Below, one piece after another: positions 4,012-44,379 of a stretch of 64,000 bases of DNA. The stretch spans positions 1,383,188-1,447,187 of the forward strand of contig OY969885.1 of the NCBI GenBank assembly GCA_963704325.1. The letters are read 5' to 3'. A program made the position numbers and the translations under genes. Source of the stretch: an uncultured Chloroflexia bacterium. Its GTDB lineage: Bacteria > Chloroflexota > Limnocylindria > Limnocylindrales > CSP1-4. The notes below the pieces were generated by a model. It made no database searches, was not told the DNA's origin, and saw nothing but the letters and a program-made list of their open reading frames with translations. Position 1 is the stretch's first letter. Each line of letters opens with the position of its first letter.

Positions 4012-4425
4012 GGCGCGAGCGTAGCGCGGCTCAGCGGACGGGTGCGCCGACGCCTGGCCGCGGCCTTCACGGACGCGTTTGTTGGCCACGGCCGAAGTAA
4101 CAGCCAAGTTGTGGGCTGCGCTGCCCCCAAAGCGGGGCATCTGTGCCGTTTGTTCGCGCTGGACGAAGAATTGGGCGAGTTGCTGGCAGTTTGGGCGGCT
4201 TCCTGGCTTTTACTTCGTCCACGGCGAACAAGTGGCGCCAACTCTCGTGCCGGGCCGCGTGGGGCGCCGCGATTGCGCCTCCACGACCCCTGATCTAGAC
4301 TCAATCCTGACGTGGATAGTCGGAATTCGACAGCCTTGGATCCCCTTACAGCGGCCGTCCTTGAAGAGGGCGTGGCGCCGGCCAAGCTTGCCCGCACGCG
4401 GAGCATCTTCCCTGGCACCGGCGCC

Positions 4426-4889
4426 GTGCACTTCTCGACGCGCGGCGAGTACGGGGTGCGCCTGATCGTGGAGCTGGCGCGCCATTTTGGCTCCGGTCCG
4501 GTCAGCCTGGGCGAAGTTGCCGATCACGAGGCCCTGCCGCGCCCGTACCTGGAGCAGCTCGTCATCAGCCTGCGTGAGTCGGGCCTGGTGCGCAGCACGC
4601 GCGGCGCGCGCGGCGGCTACGAGCTTGCCCGGCCGCCGGAGGAGATTCGCATGGGCGAGGTGCTCAGGGCACTCGAAGGGCCGATCGCACCGATGATCTG
4701 CGCGAGCGAGGATCCGGCGCATGCGTCAATGTGCGAGCGGACCGGCTTCTGCAACGTCAATCACCTGTGGCTGACCGTGCGCAAGGCGATCTCCGGCGCA
4801 CTCGACTCGATCACGCTCGCCGACCTGGCCGTTCCCCGGTCACGCCACCCGTTTCACTCGGGCCCAATACCCATTCAGCTGACGGAGTC

Positions 4890-4893
<4 letters not shown>
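4426..4893 (+). CDS. Rrf2-family transcriptional regulator (IscR/RirA-like, 3 Cys)
   Basis: VHFSTRGEYGVRLIVELAR...LEQLVISLRESGLVRSTRGARGGYELARPPEEI with a C-terminal Cys cluster (C-x6-C-x5-C). GTG start at 4426, in frame with the longer ORF. The stop overlaps the sufC start. Confidence 0.8.
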
Positions 4894-5819
<926 letters not shown>

Positions 5820-5845: not shown

Positions 5846-7094
5846 ATGGCCATCGTCCGGCCGCTCGATCCAGTCTCCGTGCGCGCCGACTTCGCGATCT
5901 ATGAGCGCGAGTTCCGCGGCCGCCGCCTGGCCTACCTGGACAGCGCCGCAACCAGCCTCAAGCCGCGCGCTGTGGCCGACGCGATGTCGGGCTACCTCAA
6001 CCGCTACAGCGCCAACGTCCACCGCGGCATCTACGAGATCGGCGAGGAGGCCACCGCGGCGTACGAGGGCGCGCGCACGAAGATTGCCAATTTTTTGGGC
6101 GCGGCTGACTCGCGCGAGGTGATCATGGTGCGCAACGCGACAGAGGCGATCAACCTCGTTGCCTACGCCTGGGGACGCAAGAACATCGGCCGGGCGGACA
6201 CGGTCGTGGTGACGGAGATGGAGCACCACTCCAACCTCATTCCGTGGCAGATGCTGACCCAGGAGAAGGACGCCGACCTGGAGTTCGTGCCCTTCGATGA
6301 CGAAGGCCGGCTGATCCAGGACAGCTACGACGTCCTGCTGCGCACCAAGCCCAAGCTCGTCTCGTTCACCGCCGTGTCGAATGGCATCGGCACGATCAAC
6401 CCGGTGCGCGAGATGGTTGACAAGGCGCATGAGGCCGGCGCGCTGGTGCTGATCGACGGTGCCCAGGCCGCTCCGCATGAGCCGGTCAACGTCCAGGAGC
6501 TGGGCTGTCGACTTCTTCGTCTTCTCCGGCCACAAGACGCTCGGCCCGCCAGGCTCCGGCGCGCTCTGGGCGCGGCGCGAGATCCTGGAGGACATGCCCC
6601 CGTTCATGGGCGGCGGCGAGATGATCCGCGAGGTGCACCTGCGCCACACGACATACAACGAGGTGCCCTTCAAGTTCGAGGCGGGGACGCCGGACATCTC
6701 CGCGGCGATCGGCCTCGGCGCGGCGGTCGACTACCTGACCGGCATCGGCATGGAGCACATTCGTGCCCACGAGCGCGACCTGGTCGAGTACGCCCTGGAC
6801 ATGCTGCCGCGCGAGGTGCCCAGCATTCGCATCCACGGGCCGCTGTCGGCATCCGACAGGGCCGGGATCGTCACTTTCAATTTGGCCGACGCGCATCCGC
6901 ATGACGTGGCCACGCTGCTCGACCGCGAGGCCATCGCAGTCCGTGCCGGCCACCACTGCACGATGCCGCTCCACCAGCGCCTGGGCGAGGAAGCCAGCGC
7001 CCGGGCAAGCTTCTACGTCTACACCGATCGCGAGGACATCGACCGCCTCGCGCAGGCACTTCAGAAGGTCGAACGCATGTTTGCCCGAAACTAG
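5846..7094 (+). pseudogene. sufS: cysteine desulfurase SufS, interrupted by a +1 frameshift near 6506
   Basis: The N-terminal 220 aa (5846 frame) and C-terminal 200 aa (6459 frame) are both SufS. The junction ...HEPVNVQELG | VDFFVFSGHKTLGPPGSGALW needs one extra T removed in ctgggcTgtcgac. The PLP-lysine motif SGHK is intact. Confidence 0.8.
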
Positions 7095-7099
7095 GAACC

Positions 7100-7498
7100 G
7101 TGGACGACCTATACCGCGACGAGATCCTCGAGCACTACCGCAACCCGCACAACTTCGGCATCCTGGATTCGCCGACCACGGCCAAGGAAGGCGCCAATCC
7201 GCTGTGCGGCGACCGGATCACGCTGATGCTCTCGATCAACGACGAGGGCACGGTCGAAGACGTGTCCTTCACCGGCCGCGGCTGCGCGATCAGCCAGGCC
7301 TCGGCCTCCATGCTGACCGATGACATCAAAGGCAAGCCGCTGTCGGAGATCGCGCAATTCGACCGACAGCACGTCCTGGACAACCTGTCGATCGAGATCA
7401 GCCCGGCGCGCATGAAGTGCGCGATGCTGTCGATCGAGACGCTCAAGTCGGCCATCGACGATCGCGTCGACTGGCAGGGCAAGCTCGATGAATCCTGA
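7100..7498 (+). CDS. sufU: SufU/IscU-like Fe-S scaffold (NifU N-terminal domain)
   Basis: ILEHYRNPHNFG...CGD...GCAISQASASM...KCA carries the conserved Cys triad. GTG start. Confidence 0.85.
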   Translation: MDDLYRDEILEHYRNPHNFGILDSPTTAKEGANPLCGDRITLMLSINDEGTVEDVSFTGRGCAISQASASMLTDDIKGKPLSEIAQFDRQHVLDNLSIEISPARMKCAMLSIETLKSAIDDRVDWQGKLDES

Positions 7499-8645
7499 TC
7501 GGTCGCTGCCCCTGGCGCGCGGGCCGGTACGCGAGGTGATGCCGGCCGAGGCGGCTGAGCTGATCGCCGCTGGCGCGGTCCTGCTCGACACGCGCGAGCA
7601 GCACGAGTGGAACGCCGGATACCTGAACGGCGCCACGCTGCTGCCGCCGATGCAGGTCACGCAGCGTGTTGAAGAGATCGCGCCGGACAAGAGCAGGCCG
7701 GTCGTGATCTATTGCGCGGCGGGGGCGCGATCCATGCGCGCCGCGGTCCAGCTCGCCCAGATGGGCTACACGGACGTGGCGTCCATGGCCGGCGGCATCG
7801 GACTGTGGAAGTCGGAGGGCCGGCCCACCCAGATGCCGCAGTCGACGCCGGCCGTCGCGAGCAACCCGCGCTACGCGCGCCACCTGGTCATGCCGGAGGT
7901 CGGGCCGGAGGGCCAGGCCAAACTGCAGCAGTCGAAGGTGCTGTTCATCGGTGCCGGCGGGCTGGGCTCGCCCGGTTTGCTGTACCTGGCCGCGGCGGGC
8001 GTCGGGACCCTGGGCATCGTCGATTTCGACGTGGTCGACCTTTCCAACCTGCAGCGCCAGGTTGTCCATGCCGACAACCGGATCGGCATGAAGAAGACCG
8101 CGTCGGCGGCGCAGACGATCCGCGCCCTCAACCCTGAGGTGAAGGTCGTCGCGCACGAGGAGATGCTGACCGAAGAGAACGTCGATCGGCTCATCGCGGG
8201 CTACGACGTCGTGATCGACGGAACGGACACGTTCGAGACGCGCTACACGCTCAACGACGCTGCCGTGCGCGCGGCGATTCCGGTCGTGCATGCATCGGTG
8301 TTCCGCTTCGAGGGCCAGCTGAGCGTCTTCGTGCCCTACGAAGGGCCGTGCTACCGCTGCCTGTATCCCACGCCGCCACCGCCCGAGCTTGCGCCCGGTT
8401 GCTCTGTCGCGGGCGTGCTTGGCGTCGTGCCGGGCGTGATGGGCCTGCTCCAGGCGACGGAGGCGATCAAGGTCCTGCTGCACATCGGCGATCCGCTCGT
8501 GGGCCGCCTCTTGATCTGGGACGCGCTCGACGGAGCGTTCAGCGAGGTGACATTGCGCCGTGATCCGGCCTGTCCGGCATGCGGCGTGGACGCCAGCCGG
8601 CGCGAGGTCGCCGCCGCTCAGCCCGCCTTCGCCAGCGCCGGGTGA
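7488..8645 (+). CDS. rhodanese-ThiF/MoeB (E1-like) fusion, MoeZ-like with rhodanese at the N-terminus
   Basis: Residues 1-120 are a rhodanese domain (active site YCAAGARS). Residues 130-385 are a ThiF/MoeB adenylyltransferase (GAGGLGSP, RQ, CYRC...CPAC zinc motif). Confidence 0.85.
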   Translation: MNPDRSLPLARGPVREVMPAEAAELIAAGAVLLDTREQHEWNAGYLNGATLLPPMQVTQRVEEIAPDKSRPVVIYCAAGARSMRAAVQLAQMGYTDVASMAGGIGLWKSEGRPTQMPQSTPAVASNPRYARHLVMPEVGPEGQAKLQQSKVLFIGAGGLGSPGLLYLAAAGVGTLGIVDFDVVDLSNLQRQVVHADNRIGMKKTASAAQTIRALNPEVKVVAHEEMLTEENVDRLIAGYDVVIDGTDTFETRYTLNDAAVRAAIPVVHASVFRFEGQLSVFVPYEGPCYRCLYPTPPPPELAPGCSVAGVLGVVPGVMGLLQATEAIKVLLHIGDPLVGRLLIWDALDGAFSEVTLRRDPACPACGVDASRREVAAAQPAFASAG

Positions 8646-8665
8646 CCCGGGTCCGAATACCTCCC

Positions 8666-8935
8666 GTGCTGCGCGTCCATGTCGGCGGGCAGAAGGAGGT
8701 GGACGCTTCTGGAGCCACGGTGGGCGAGCTGCTGCGCGAACTCTCGGGCCGCAGCTCTGGACTGGCCGAGCAGCTCTTCACGGACGACGGCGCACTGCAT
8801 CGCTTCGTCAACGTCTATGTCAACGGCCAGGACGTGCGCTACCTGTCGGAGCTCGACACGCCCGTGTCGGAGCGCGATGCGGTGATCATCCTGCCGGCCA
8901 TGGCGGGAGGCTCGGCCGCCGCCACAGGCTCTTGA
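8666..8935 (+). CDS. cysO: CysO/MoaD/ThiS-like sulfur carrier with a 7-residue extension after the Gly-Gly
   Basis: 90 aa with ...ILPAMAGGSAAATGS* at the C-terminus. GTG start. The stop overlaps the cysM TTG start (TTGA). A JAMM protease lies downstream. Confidence 0.7.
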   Translation: MLRVHVGGQKEVDASGATVGELLRELSGRSSGLAEQLFTDDGALHRFVNVYVNGQDVRYLSELDTPVSERDAVIILPAMAGGSAAATGS

Positions 8936-9864
8936 GCGTCAGCGTCTCGCTGCTCGACCTGATCGGGCGTACACCGCTCGTCGATATCTCCCGTTTCTGC
9001 CCAAATCCCGGCGTCCGGCTGCTGGTCAAGCTGGAGGGCGCCAACCCCACTGGATCGGTCAAGGACCGCGTGGCGCGCTACCTGGTTGCCGACCTGGAAC
9101 GCGCAGGCCGCCTTGGTCCGGACGCGATCATCCTGGAGCCGTCGAGCGGCAACACCGGCATCTCGCTCGCGCTTGTGTGCCTGTTGAAGGGCTACCGGTT
9201 GACCGTTGTGATGCCGGACAACGTGACTCGTGAGCGGCGCCAGCTGCTCGAGCTTTACGGCGCTCAGATCATCGATTCACCCGGCGCCCTGGGCTCCAAC
9301 GGCGCGGTGGCGATGGCCCGTCAGCTGGCGGCGGCCGATCCGCGCTACGTCATGGCCGACCAGTACGCCAACCCGGCCAACCCGCTCGCCCACTACGAGA
9401 CGACCGGCCCGGAGATCATCGCCGACTGCCCGGAGATCGACGTCTTCGTCGCCGGACTGGGCACGGGCGGGACGCTGATGGGCGTGAGCCGGCGACTGCG
9501 CGAGCTCGACCGCCCGGTGCGCATCTACGCCGCGGAGCCGATGCCGGGCGAGATGGTCCAGGGCCTGCGCTCGATTGACGAGGGCTTCGTGCCCGAGATC
9601 TTCGACCCGTCGGCCATTGACGGTCGCTTCCTCGTCACAACAGCCGAGTCGATCGAGGCTTTGCGCAGGCTGACCGCGACCGAGGGGATCTTTGCCGGCG
9701 TCTCGGCCGGGGGAGTGCTTGCCGTCGCGTCGCGCATCGCGCTGGGCATGGAGTCGGGGACCATCGTTGCGCTCCTCGCCGACGGCGGCTGGAAGTACCT
9801 GTCCGAAAACGTCTGGTCGCGCGACCTCGATGATGAGTCGGTGGAGAGCCTCAACCTGTGGTGA
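8932..9864 (+). CDS. cysM: O-phosphoserine sulfhydrylase / cysteine synthase CysM (PLP-dependent)
   Basis: TPLVDI...KLEGANPTGSVKDR (PLP lysine), SSGNTG and GTGGT motifs. TTG start coupled to the cysO stop. Confidence 0.85.
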   Translation: MSVSVSLLDLIGRTPLVDISRFCPNPGVRLLVKLEGANPTGSVKDRVARYLVADLERAGRLGPDAIILEPSSGNTGISLALVCLLKGYRLTVVMPDNVTRERRQLLELYGAQIIDSPGALGSNGAVAMARQLAAADPRYVMADQYANPANPLAHYETTGPEIIADCPEIDVFVAGLGTGGTLMGVSRRLRELDRPVRIYAAEPMPGEMVQGLRSIDEGFVPEIFDPSAIDGRFLVTTAESIEALRRLTATEGIFAGVSAGGVLAVASRIALGMESGTIVALLADGGWKYLSENVWSRDLDDESVESLNLW

Positions 9865-10361
9865 AGGAGTCGCTGCCGACGCCCGAAGAATGGGCCGCGG
9901 TCAAGCGCGAGCCGGCCGGCATGGCAGGCGCCGCGGATGAGCTGGCGCATGTCTCGCTGCCGGCGGCTCTGCTGCAGGAGGTGATCGACGCGGCCAGGGA
10001 CGGGCTGCCCAACGAGTCATGTGGGCTACTGGTCAGTGACCGCTACGCGGCGGATGGCGGGACACCGTCGCGCTACATCGCCTTGCGCAACGCGGCGGAG
10101 TCGCCCTACCGCTACCTGATCGACCCCCAGGAGCAGCTCCGCGTGTGGATCGCGATCGAAGACGCCGACGAGGTCGTTTGGGCGATCGTCCACTCCCATG
10201 TGGCATCCCTCGCACGGCCGTCCGCGACTGACGTGGGCCTGGCCTACTTCCCGGATTCGCTGTACGTGATCTGTTCGCTTGCCGCCGCGGATCAGCCGGA
10301 GGTCCGCGCCTGGTCCATCCACGACGGCAATGTCACCGAGGTTCAGCTAGGCGTCGCCTAG
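9858..10361 (+). CDS. mec: Mov34/MPN/JAMM metalloprotease (Mec+-like)
   Basis: The JAMM motif HSHVASLARPSATD (HxHx7Sx2D) is preceded by ...ESCGLLV. The start overlaps the cysM stop. Confidence 0.8.
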   Translation: MVKESLPTPEEWAAVKREPAGMAGAADELAHVSLPAALLQEVIDAARDGLPNESCGLLVSDRYAADGGTPSRYIALRNAAESPYRYLIDPQEQLRVWIAIEDADEVVWAIVHSHVASLARPSATDVGLAYFPDSLYVICSLAAADQPEVRAWSIHDGNVTEVQLGVA

Positions 10362-17390: not shown

Positions 17391-17631
17391 GGTCTTCCGA
17401 TCCAGCTGTGGACGGGACCGGGCTCGCCATTGCTCCGCGCGACCTACGGCGACCGATTGGTTTAGCCGCGCATCTCAGCTTCCCGAACTAGGTCCTGATA
17501 CTCAGGCGTGGCCGCGCTCCTGTCGATATCAGAAGCATGTACGTGTTGACCGAAGTCAACGGCCATGTACACCTCACCCCCTCGCACCCCGGTCGAGCGC
17601 ACAGGACCCGTAGTACCCAGGTCAGGGGTAC

Positions 17632-44303: not shown

Positions 44304-44379
44304 GGGGGAGTAGCTCAGTGGTTAGAGCAGACGGCTTATATCCGTCCGGTCCCTGGTTCGAATCCAGGCTCCCCTACCA
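44304..44379 (+). tRNA. tRNA-Ile, anticodon UAU (reads AUA)
   Basis: Manual fold:
- acceptor GGGGGAG/CTCCCCT (one G-U pair)
- D-arm GCTC-AGTGGTTA-GAGC
- anticodon stem GACGG/CCGTC with loop cTTATAt
- variable loop CGGTC
- T-arm CCTGG-TTCGAAT-CCAGG
- discriminator A, then encoded CCA. Confidence 0.75.

What the first reader, a model, noticed from the sequence alone, without database searches (positions are those of the whole stretch)
8666..10361. CysO-like carrier made as a precursor (GG followed by SAAATGS) next to its JAMM maturase
The sulfur carrier ends ...AMAGG-SAAATGS, so the Gly-Gly must be exposed by proteolysis before adenylation. The downstream JAMM/MPN protein (HSHVASLARPSATD) is the obvious maturase. 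In M. tuberculosis Mec+ instead hydrolyses the CysO-cysteine adduct and CysO ends directly in GG. A precursor-processing role here would be a different use of the same enzyme.
Basis: partly seen in the sequence, partly recalled or inferred. Interest (0 to 1): 0.5.

Follow-up and report, generated by a model that had tools for sequence, protein, structure and literature searches.

The report
Sulfur-carrier pro-protein beside its trimming peptidase
A small sulfur-carrying protein used to make cysteine is translated with seven extra residues after its reactive Gly-Gly end, and the metallopeptidase encoded two genes downstream most likely trims them off; this arrangement is already known from sister sulfur-carrier pathways, so it is real but fairly ordinary.

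Summary
A CysO-type carrier (corrected span 8642..8935, 97 aa) has an invariant ...ILPAMAGG followed by SAAATGS. It sits in a translationally coupled run: rhodanese-ThiF E1, CysO, CysM, JAMM, downstream of Rrf2, SufC, SufS and SufU.

The tail is not a sequencing artefact. 115 of the 120 closest homologues, from independent assemblies of Candidatus Limnocylindrales/Chloroflexota MAGs, also carry 1-14 residues after GG.

Conservation stops exactly at G90, the tail is modelled as disordered, and tails turn over quickly between close relatives. The first tail residue is usually small and never proline, which fits a need to be cleavable.

The JAMM gene is present whether or not the carrier has a tail (39 tail-less and 34 tailed loci). 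Its presence is therefore explained by the Mec+ job of releasing cysteine from CysO-Cys. Tail removal is the same cut after GG with a longer leaving group, so it is an added use and not a different one.

JAMM maturation of sulfur-carrier precursors is already documented or proposed for QbsE/QbsD, HcyS/HcyD, CxnE/CxnF and MoaD-MoaE fusions.

Related actinobacterial MAGs carry in-frame CysO-CysM fusions followed by a JAMM gene, the extreme form of the same thing.

Verdict: new member of a known kind, modest interest.

The parts
4312..4893 (+). Rrf2-family transcriptional regulator at the head of the gene run (context only)
   Evidence: Pfam PF02082, 127 bits. Same position in the syntenic contig L081.
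4731..5819 (+). SufC-like ABC ATPase (true start probably downstream of 4731)
   Evidence: Pfam ABC_tran. L081 has a 307-aa ABC_tran gene in the same place.
5846..7094 (+). SufS-type cysteine desulfurase, split into two frames by one extra base near 6507
   Evidence: Two ORFs hit Aminotran_5 positions 1-192 and 189-371. The window reads GGCTGTCGAC where five relatives read GGCTG-CGAC or GGC-GCCGA.
7100..7498 (+). SufU/IscU-type sulfur acceptor
   Evidence: Pfam NifU_N, 102 bits.
7488..8645 (+). E1-like adenylyltransferase with an N-terminal rhodanese domain. Rhodanese Cys in YCAAGARS (7710..7733), GAGGLGS ATP loop (7950..7970), CYRC and CPAC zinc motifs, and PGCSVAG.
   Evidence: Pfam Rhodanese 19-109 plus ThiF 129-364. 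NCBIfam PRK08762 scores 519 bits against a cut-off of 449. Motif positions.
8642..8935 (+). CysO-type sulfur carrier precursor, 97 aa. The GTG start overlaps the E1 stop (GTGA).
   Evidence: Pfam ThiS 10-90. Best solved relative is M. tuberculosis CysO 3dwg_C, E 3.5e-23. Start confirmed by 120 homologues.
8906..8911 (+). Gly89-Gly90 codons (GGA GGC), the predicted mature C-terminus and cleavage site
   Evidence: ILPAMAGG is invariant in 40 aligned homologues. The end of the Pfam model and of 3dwg_C align here.
8912..8932 (+). Seven-residue tail SAAATGS, followed by TGA at 8933..8935
   Evidence: No conservation after G90. AlphaFold pLDDT is below 50 for residues 89-97. The homologous tail is SAAGGS in L081/L001.
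8932..9864 (+). CysM-type PLP cysteine synthase. The TTG start overlaps the carrier stop (TTGA). PLP-lysine in SVKDR (codon at 9061) and Arg in GLRSIDEGF (codon at 9568).
   Evidence: Pfam PALP, 230 bits. Best solved relative is M. tuberculosis CysM 3dwg_A/3dki, E 2e-90, against about 1e-67 for enterobacterial CysM.
9858..10361 (+). Mec+-type JAMM/MPN+ metallopeptidase. The GTG GTG start overlaps the CysM stop. Glu53 (10014..10016) and HSHVASLARPSATD (10191..10232).
   Evidence: Pfam Prok-JAB, 63.8 bits against a cut-off of 25. Solved relatives are 2kks (4e-17) and PfJAMM1 5ld9. The N-terminal VVKxxLPTP(D/E)EW motif is conserved in close relatives.

Best explanation
Window 7488..10361 encodes a protein-thiocarboxylate cysteine pathway of the M. 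tuberculosis CysO/CysM/Mec+ type, fed by the SufS/SufU genes just upstream.

Inferred sequence of events:
1. The carrier is translated as a 97-aa pro-form.
2. The JAMM peptidase hydrolyses the Gly90-Ser91 bond and releases the tail SAAATGS.
3. The rhodanese-ThiF E1 adenylates the exposed Gly90. Using persulfide sulfur relayed from SufS, it converts Gly90 to a thiocarboxylate.
4. CysM adds it to the aminoacrylate made from O-phosphoserine. After S-to-N acyl shift this gives CysO-GG-Cys.
5. The same JAMM cuts after GG again, releasing cysteine and regenerating the carrier.

Tail removal and cysteine release are thus the same reaction at the same bond position, differing only in the leaving group.

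The tail itself most likely has no function. It looks like a by-product of placing the cysO stop inside the cysM start codon (CTTGA), plus a small duplication of the AGGS-coding unit. It is tolerated because an always-present JAMM removes whatever follows GG.

Shown here: gene identities, the pro-form, its family-wide occurrence and variability, and the constant JAMM linkage. Inferred: every enzymatic step, including the cleavage.
For: - Domain identities and motifs.
- Closest solved relatives are M. tuberculosis CysO and CysM from the same complex, 3dwg.
- Four-nucleotide start/stop overlaps link E1, CysO, CysM and JAMM.
- The order SufS-SufU-E1-CysO-CysM-JAMM recurs in most of 80 related loci and in the syntenic contig L081.
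- 115 of the 120 closest homologues have tails of 1-14 aa. ILPAMAGG is invariant and nothing is conserved after it.
- The tail is modelled as disordered outside a confident beta-grasp.
- Pairs whose 90-aa cores are 85-90% identical differ in tail 48% of the time.
- Across 125 distinct short tails the first residue is A/S/T/C/G in 83% against 52% at later positions, and proline is 0/125 against 7.9%. This fits a protease whose normal leaving group is cysteine.
- JAMM is present with 39 tail-less and 34 tailed carriers.
- In-frame CysO-CysM fusions in seven actinobacterial genome loci, and in one further metagenome contig, are each followed by a JAMM gene.
- Published precedent: QbsD trims GG-CF of QbsE, and CxnF is proposed to trim a decapeptide from CxnE (PMC5925218). 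DRJAMM and HvJAMM1 cut MoaD-MoaE (PMC8832034). The ThiS + E1-rhodanese + JAB + cysteine synthase operon type, and JAB freeing of fused carriers, were predicted in 2006 (PMC1779556).
Against: - No biochemical evidence exists for this protein, and cleavage by the JAMM is inferred from position and precedent only.
- JAMM presence does not correlate with tails, so gene context cannot separate 'maturase' from 'only Mec+'.
- Two related loci with 2-aa tails (L036, L049) show no JAMM within about 4 kb downstream of CysM. The gene may lie elsewhere in those genomes.
- The first-residue statistics are not corrected for shared ancestry.
- In the window's own sub-clade tails are nearly universal (115/120). 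That could mean selection for a capped end and not mere tolerance.
Confidence: 0.72

Rival explanations
1. The tail is a selected pro-peptide. It keeps the carrier inert (not adenylated, not conjugated to proteins) until the JAMM is active, so that carrier activation is gated or regulated.
For: In the window's sub-clade 115 of 120 carriers have at least one extra residue, and only 5 end in GG. The first tail position is biased to small residues and avoids proline, so at least cleavability is under selection.
Against: Tail length and sequence are unconstrained and turn over quickly. More distant members of the same operon family end in GG-stop in 42 of 80 loci with the same JAMM. A one-residue cap is the commonest form and equals the normal CysO-Cys intermediate in size.
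Confidence: 0.13
2. The tail is removed by a housekeeping carboxypeptidase or other protease, not by the operon's JAMM, which only releases cysteine from CysO-Cys.
For: JAMM presence is independent of tails. L036 and L049 have tails but no nearby JAMM.
Against: JAMM enzymes from sister systems cut linear extensions and fusions after GG. CysO-CysM fusions need an endopeptidase exact to the GG bond, and every fusion gene found is followed by a JAMM gene (seven genome loci and one metagenome contig). A non-specific exopeptidase would not stop precisely at GG.
Confidence: 0.08
3. The module is mainly a SAMP-like protein-conjugation system, with the JAMM acting as a deconjugase, and not a cysteine-synthesis pathway.
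For: The NCBIfam best names are SAMP1 (59.9 bits, cut-off 60) for the carrier and desampylase for the JAMM.
Against: Both scores are below their cut-offs (desampylase 71.7 against 130). The best solved relatives are M. tuberculosis CysO and CysM. The CysM gene is translationally coupled between carrier and JAMM and is even fused to the carrier in relatives. No E2-like gene is present.
Confidence: 0.04
4. The tail is an artefact of a sequencing or assembly error that removed a stop codon directly after GG.
For: The window has at least one single-base insertion that breaks SufS, so the assembly is not error-free. The close contig L081 also shows split genes.
Against: Tails occur in 115 of 120 homologues from many independent assemblies. 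The nearest long tails are homologous and end at the same CTTGA junction, in frame. Turning TCG into a stop needs a specific substitution, not an indel.
Confidence: 0.02

Closest known systems
M. tuberculosis CysO / CysM / Mec+ / MoeZR cysteine pathway (Burns et al. 2005, own knowledge; summarised in PMC3227635)
   Same: Same carrier family (3dwg_C, E 3.5e-23) and same CysM subfamily (3dwg_A, E 2e-90). A JAMM peptidase lies in the same operon, and an E1 with a rhodanese domain is present.
   Different: M. tuberculosis CysO ends directly in GG, whereas this one has 7 more residues. The gene order differs (mec-cysO-cysM against E1-cysO-cysM-JAMM). The E1 is in the operon here, has its rhodanese at the N-terminus and keeps two CxxC motifs; it scores below the MoeZ cut-off (360 against 647). 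SufS and SufU are linked here.
QbsE/QbsD (thioquinolobactin) and CxnE/CxnF (chuangxinmycin) carrier precursor plus JAMM pairs (PMC5925218)
   Same: The sulfur carrier has residues after GG (CF in QbsE, a decapeptide in CxnE). A JAMM gene in the cluster is shown (QbsD) or proposed (CxnF) to expose GG before adenylation by a rhodanese-containing E1.
   Different: Those serve secondary-metabolite sulfur insertion. There the JAMM has no second, product-releasing role, whereas here it must also release cysteine on every turnover.
HcyS-Ala / HcyD of Wolinella succinogenes methionine synthesis (Krishnamoorthy and Begley 2011 JACS 133:379; details from own knowledge, reference seen)
   Same: A primary-metabolism amino-acid pathway in which the carrier is made with one extra residue after GG and a JAMM-type metalloprotease removes it. 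The commonest tail in the window's clade is also a single Ala.
   Different: The partner enzyme is an O-acetylhomoserine sulfhydrylase making homocysteine, not a CysM making cysteine. The window's tail is 7 residues.
MoaD-MoaE fusions cut by JAMM (Deinococcus DRJAMM, Haloferax HvJAMM1, mycobacterial MoaX; PMC8832034)
   Same: The carrier is fused in frame to its partner enzyme and released by cleavage after GG. This matches the CysO-CysM fusions found here in Thermoleophilia/Gaiellaceae relatives.
   Different: A different cofactor pathway. The window itself has a short tail, not a fusion.

Membership tests
CysO-type sulfur carrier (ThiS/MoaD superfamily, PF02597) | Beta-grasp ThiS/MoaD domain | tested here: met
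   Pfam ThiS 58.5 bits against a cut-off of 22.5. AlphaFold model has pLDDT above 90 over residues 1-85 with beta-grasp secondary structure.
CysO-type sulfur carrier (ThiS/MoaD superfamily, PF02597) | Gly-Gly at the end of the domain | tested here: met
   G89-G90 align to the last two positions of the Pfam model and to the terminal GG of 3dwg_C. They are invariant in 40 homologues.
CysO-type sulfur carrier (ThiS/MoaD superfamily, PF02597) | GG is the C-terminus of the primary translation product | tested here: not met
   Seven codons follow before TGA. The protein is therefore a pro-form of the family and not a ready-to-use member.
CysO-type sulfur carrier (ThiS/MoaD superfamily, PF02597) | Closest characterised relative is CysO, not ThiS or MoaD | tested here: met
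   3dwg_C (M. tuberculosis CysO) E 3.5e-23, and 4n6e_B E 1.6e-21. MoaD and SAMP entries score 1e-9 or weaker.
CysO-type sulfur carrier (ThiS/MoaD superfamily, PF02597) | C-terminal thiocarboxylate formed by the E1 | not testable with these tools
   Needs mass spectrometry of the protein.
Mec+ / prokaryotic JAMM-MPN+ peptidase (PF14464) | Prok-JAB domain above the curated cut-off | tested here: met
   63.8 bits against a cut-off of 25.
Mec+ / prokaryotic JAMM-MPN+ peptidase (PF14464) | Catalytic motif E ... H-S/T-H-x7-S-x2-D | tested here: met
   Glu53 in PNESCG, and HSHVASLARPSATD at aa 112-125. The motif definition is quoted.
Mec+ / prokaryotic JAMM-MPN+ peptidase (PF14464) | Operon linkage with the CysO and CysM genes | tested here: met
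   The start overlaps the CysM stop. The same linkage is seen in most of 80 loci.
Mec+ / prokaryotic JAMM-MPN+ peptidase (PF14464) | Hydrolysis after GG of CysO-Cys or of the precursor | not testable with these tools
   Enzymatic assay required.
Haloarchaeal desampylase (NCBIfam NF041370) | Score above the equivalog cut-off | tested here: not met
   71.7 bits against a cut-off of 130.
CysO-dependent O-phosphoserine sulfhydrylase (M. tuberculosis CysM type) | PLP fold-type II enzyme with the lysine in the S-x-K-D-R motif | tested here: met
   PALP 230 bits. SVKDR aligns to SIKDR of 3dwg_A.
CysO-dependent O-phosphoserine sulfhydrylase (M. tuberculosis CysM type) | Closer to M. tuberculosis CysM than to O-acetylserine sulfhydrylases | tested here: met
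   E 2e-90 against about 1e-67 to 1e-71 for others. Below the enterobacterial CysM equivalog cut-off (280 against 413).
CysO-dependent O-phosphoserine sulfhydrylase (M. tuberculosis CysM type) | Arginine equivalent to M. tuberculosis Arg220, which binds the phosphate of O-phosphoserine (role from own knowledge) | tested here: met
   GLRSIDEGF aligns with ALRNMDEGF of 3dwg_A.
MoeZ/MoeZR E1 (NCBIfam PRK07878) | ThiF domain with a C-terminal rhodanese; score above the equivalog cut-off | tested here: not met
   The rhodanese is N-terminal (residues 19-109). PRK07878 scores 360 against 647. The protein instead passes PRK08762 (519 against 449) and keeps the CYRC and CPAC motifs said to be absent from MoeZ.
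Sulfur-carrier pro-form plus JAMM maturase systems (QbsE/QbsD type) | Extra residues after GG, and a JAMM gene in the same cluster | tested here: met
Sulfur-carrier pro-form plus JAMM maturase systems (QbsE/QbsD type) | JAMM-dependent exposure of GG demonstrated | not testable with these tools

The most novel reading that the evidence does not exclude
In CysO pathways the permanent presence of a GG-specific JAMM (needed to release cysteine) may have made the position of the carrier's stop codon nearly neutral. The family would then have repeatedly evolved pro-forms, from one-residue caps through 7-27-residue tails to in-frame CysO-CysM and CysO-E1 polyproteins. That would be a bacterial metabolic counterpart of ubiquitin being made as fusion precursors. 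In the window's own clade, where capped forms are nearly universal, the cap may further be selected as a safety catch on carrier activation.
Probability: 0.3. Interest if true: 0.45.

Novelty: new member of a known kind. Interest (0 to 1): 0.27.

Why it matters
It extends the carrier pro-form plus JAMM maturase logic, known from siderophore, antibiotic, methionine and molybdopterin pathways, to the CysO cysteine pathway. It also shows that in soil Chloroflexota (Limnocylindrales) most CysO genes encode capped carriers.

For annotation and for anyone expressing these proteins, the practical point is that the carrier must be trimmed to Gly90 before it can work. One peptidase probably serves both as maturase and as product-releasing enzyme.

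The family-wide survey (variable tails, a small and non-proline first residue, CysO-CysM fusions) gives a ready natural substrate panel for defining JAMM specificity. It does not open a new mechanism.

Tried and rejected
- A resemblance between the JAMM N-terminus (EPAGMAGAAD) and the carrier C-terminus (LPAMAGGSAA) suggested a pseudo-substrate. It is not conserved in relatives, so it was rejected as chance in Ala/Gly-rich sequence.
- I tested the idea that one extra codon is forced by the overlapping cysM start. GGT TGA would also give a TTGA overlap, and GG-stop relatives exist, so it is not forced.
- I considered that the mature end might be the second, degenerate 'TG' of the tail, with only the last Ser removed. 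This was rejected because many tails lack any second GG and only the first GG is invariant.
- Correlating JAMM presence with tail presence proved uninformative, because JAMM is nearly always present.
- A literature search with HcyS/HcyD was swamped by 'HCys' used for homocysteine. The Krishnamoorthy and Begley paper is not held, so its details rest on my own knowledge.
- The window was searched for further ThiS-like or JAMM paralogues. None were found.
- The context of the tandem CysO-CysO protein P0121 shows a PALP enzyme and a NIL-domain gene but no JAMM. It comes from a low-coverage contig, so it was not used as evidence.
Full report
**What is in the sequence**

On the + strand of this 68% G+C window there is an unbroken run of genes:
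- an Rrf2 regulator (4312..4893)
- a SufC-like ATPase (ending at 5819)
- a SufS cysteine desulfurase (5846..7094)
- SufU (7100..7498)
- an E1-like enzyme with an N-terminal rhodanese and a ThiF domain (7488..8645)
- a ThiS-family carrier (8642..8935)
- a PLP-dependent cysteine synthase (8932..9864)
- a Prok-JAB peptidase (9858..10361)

The last four genes are joined by start/stop overlaps: GTGA, TTGA and GTGGTGA. The next genes (ECF-type ABC ATPases) lie on the opposite strand, so the run ends with the JAMM gene.

The carrier reads MTRVRIPPVLRVHVGGQKEV...VIILPAMAGG-SAAATGS-stop.

**Identity of the parts**

- *Carrier.* It matches Pfam ThiS up to residue 90, the second Gly. Its best solved relative is M. 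tuberculosis CysO from the CysO-CysM complex (3dwg_C, E 3.5e-23). That protein ends exactly at the aligned GG.
- *Synthase.* Its best match is M. tuberculosis CysM from the same complex (E 2e-90, against about 1e-67 for enterobacterial CysM). It keeps the PLP lysine motif and the arginine aligned with Arg220.
- *Peptidase.* It carries Glu53 and HSHVASLARPSATD, the JAMM motif H-S-H-x7-S-x2-D. It passes the Prok-JAB cut-off. It falls below the haloarchaeal desampylase cut-off.
- *E1.* It passes NCBIfam PRK08762 but not the MoeZ model. It has a rhodanese cysteine loop, the ATP loop and two CxxC motifs.

This is the operon type listed by Iyer et al. 2006 as ThiS/MoaD + E1-rhodanese + JAB + cysteine synthase, including in Chloroflexus (PMC1779556).

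**Is the tail real?**

Yes.
- The 120 best hits are mostly from Candidatus Limnocylindrales/Chloroflexota metagenome assemblies and are 68-93% identical.
- Of these, 115 have residues after PAMAGG: 79 have one residue (Ala in 52), the rest have 4-14, and only 5 end in GG.
- The nearest long-tailed relatives (P0003 on the syntenic 670-kb contig L081, and L001) read SAAGGS and end in the same GGCTCTTGA junction. There the cysM TTG start overlaps the cysO TGA stop. The window differs by one in-frame codon and substitutions.
- The tail looks like a small duplication of the A-G-G-S coding unit whose second GG has decayed to TG in the window.

A read-through error is therefore excluded as the explanation. 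The window does contain one single-base insertion that breaks SufS (GGCTGTCGAC where relatives read GGCTG-CGAC), so the assembly is not flawless.

**Properties of the tail**

- In a 40-sequence alignment ILPAMAGG is invariant and nothing is conserved after G90.
- AlphaFold gives a confident beta-grasp (pLDDT above 90) and pLDDT below 50 for residues 89-97.
- Tails turn over quickly. Pairs whose 90-aa cores are 85-90% identical differ in tail in 48% of cases and in tail length in 26%.
- Across 125 distinct short tails from all sets, the first residue after GG is A/S/T/C/G in 83% against 52% at later tail positions. Proline never occurs there (0/125 against 7.9%). This test is not corrected for shared ancestry. 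It fits a requirement that the GG-X bond be cleavable by an enzyme whose normal leaving group is cysteine.

**Relation to the JAMM gene**

In 80 related genomic loci the order SufS-SufU-E1-CysO-CysM-JAMM is kept wherever the contig reaches.
- 42 carriers end GG-stop, and the rest have tails of 1-27 residues or read on into the next gene.
- JAMM is present with 39 tail-less and 34 tailed carriers.

The JAMM is therefore not there because of the tail. Its presence is explained by the Mec+ function described for M. tuberculosis, hydrolysis of the CysO-cysteine adduct (PMC3227635).

Tail removal would be hydrolysis of the same bond position with a longer leaving group. A single-residue cap is the same size as the natural CysO-Cys intermediate.

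Two loci with 2-aa tails (L036, L049) have no JAMM within about 4 kb downstream. Whether those genomes have one elsewhere could not be checked.

**Fusions in relatives**

- In seven Thermoleophilia/Gaiellaceae/Actinomycetes MAG loci the carrier reads through GG directly into CysM (...PAMAGG-EHALAPSLLDTVGSTPLV...). Four are intact: L022, L035, L073 and L076. Three have later frame breaks: L042, L057 and L066. Each is followed by a JAMM gene.
- Pfam confirms a ThiS plus PALP architecture for L022, L076 and the metagenome protein P0142. The contig carrying P0142 also has a JAMM gene next.
- The set of 50%-identity representatives also contains CysO-ThiF fusions and tandem CysO-CysO proteins. That set over-represents long and mis-called ORFs, so its length statistics are only indicative.

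These fusions cannot work without cleavage after GG. They are the strongest comparative support for a GG-specific processing activity in this operon family.

**Comparison with what is known**

JAMM-dependent maturation of sulfur carriers is established or proposed in several systems:
- QbsD removes CF from QbsE, and CxnF is proposed to remove a decapeptide from CxnE (PMC5925218).
- DRJAMM, HvJAMM1 and the MoaX case involve MoaD-MoaE fusions (PMC8832034).
- HcyD removes one Ala from HcyS in Wolinella methionine synthesis (own knowledge; reference seen).
- JAB-mediated freeing of fused ThiS/MoaD was predicted in 2006.

My searches found no paper describing tailed or CysM-fused CysO. The case is thus a new member of a known kind and not a new mechanism.

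**Mechanism and confidence**

The most likely sequence is:
1. The precursor is trimmed by the JAMM at Gly90-Ser91.
2. Gly90 is adenylated and thiocarboxylated by the rhodanese-ThiF E1, using SufS-derived persulfide.
3. CysM forms the CysO-Cys adduct.
4. The JAMM releases cysteine.

Only the gene identities, the pro-form and the comparative patterns are shown; all enzymatic steps are inferred. I put 0.72 on this reading with the tail as a tolerated by-product.

The rivals are:
- a selected regulatory cap (0.13), favoured by the near-universal caps in the window's sub-clade
- trimming by another protease (0.08)
- a SAMP-like conjugation system (0.04)
- a sequencing artefact (0.02)

**Verdict**

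Interest is modest (0.27).

Noticed in passing
window 6500..6512 (within SufS, 5846..7094): One extra base (GGCTGTCGAC where five relatives read GGCTG-CGAC or GGC-GCCGA) shifts the frame of the SufS cysteine desulfurase just before its SGHK lysine motif. It is either an assembly indel or a real pseudogene lesion. The closest contig, L081, also has split SufS, E1 and CysM genes.
   Followed up: partly
L022 5001..6188, L035, L073, L076 5001..6197 (also L042, L057, L066; P0142 on L083 855..2069): In-frame CysO-CysM fusion proteins (ThiS plus PALP, about 400 aa) in Thermoleophilia, Gaiellaceae and Actinomycetes MAGs, each followed by a JAMM gene. I found no paper describing them in the searches I ran.
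   Followed up: partly
P0254, P0240, P0243, P0169 (CysO-ThiF); P0121 on L082 5001..5573 and P0138 (CysO-CysO): Other carrier fusions among the 50%-identity representatives: CysO fused to the N-terminus of a ThiF-type E1, and tandem double-ThiS proteins. P0121 sits beside a 434-aa PALP enzyme and a NIL-domain gene, with no JAMM in view, on a low-coverage contig.
   Followed up: partly
L081 6253..6291, L001 5253..5291; P0003, P0007, P0055 and others: Many 6-aa tails contain a second Gly-Gly followed by one residue (SAAGGS, SVAGGR, AAAGGR). This looks like a tandem duplication of the AGGS-coding end, leaving two possible cleavage sites. In the window the second GG has decayed to TG.
   Followed up: partly
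window 9858..9960 and the same region of L002-L006: The JAMM of the window's sub-clade has an N-terminal extension of about 30 aa with a conserved VVKxxLPTP(D/E)EWxAxKR motif. The extension is absent from more distant relatives and from the solved homologue 2kks. Its function is unknown.
   Followed up: no
window 7488..8645: The E1 has its rhodanese domain at the N-terminus, where MoeZR/MOCS3/Uba4 have it at the C-terminus. It also keeps both CxxC zinc motifs. It passes NCBIfam PRK08762 but not the MoeZ model.
   Followed up: partly
L036 and L049 (CysO at 5001..5279): Carriers with 2-residue tails (AD, AG) whose loci show no JAMM gene or JAMM motif within about 4 kb downstream of CysM, unlike nearly all other loci.
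   Followed up: partly
window 17406..17492 (- strand): Rfam match to the c-di-GMP-II-GCG riboswitch variant (56.7 bits, gathering score 47.9).
   Followed up: no
window 44304..44379 (+ strand): A tRNA-Ile gene with anticodon TAT (UAU). To my own knowledge this is uncommon in bacteria, which usually read AUA with a lysidine-modified CAU tRNA.
   Followed up: no
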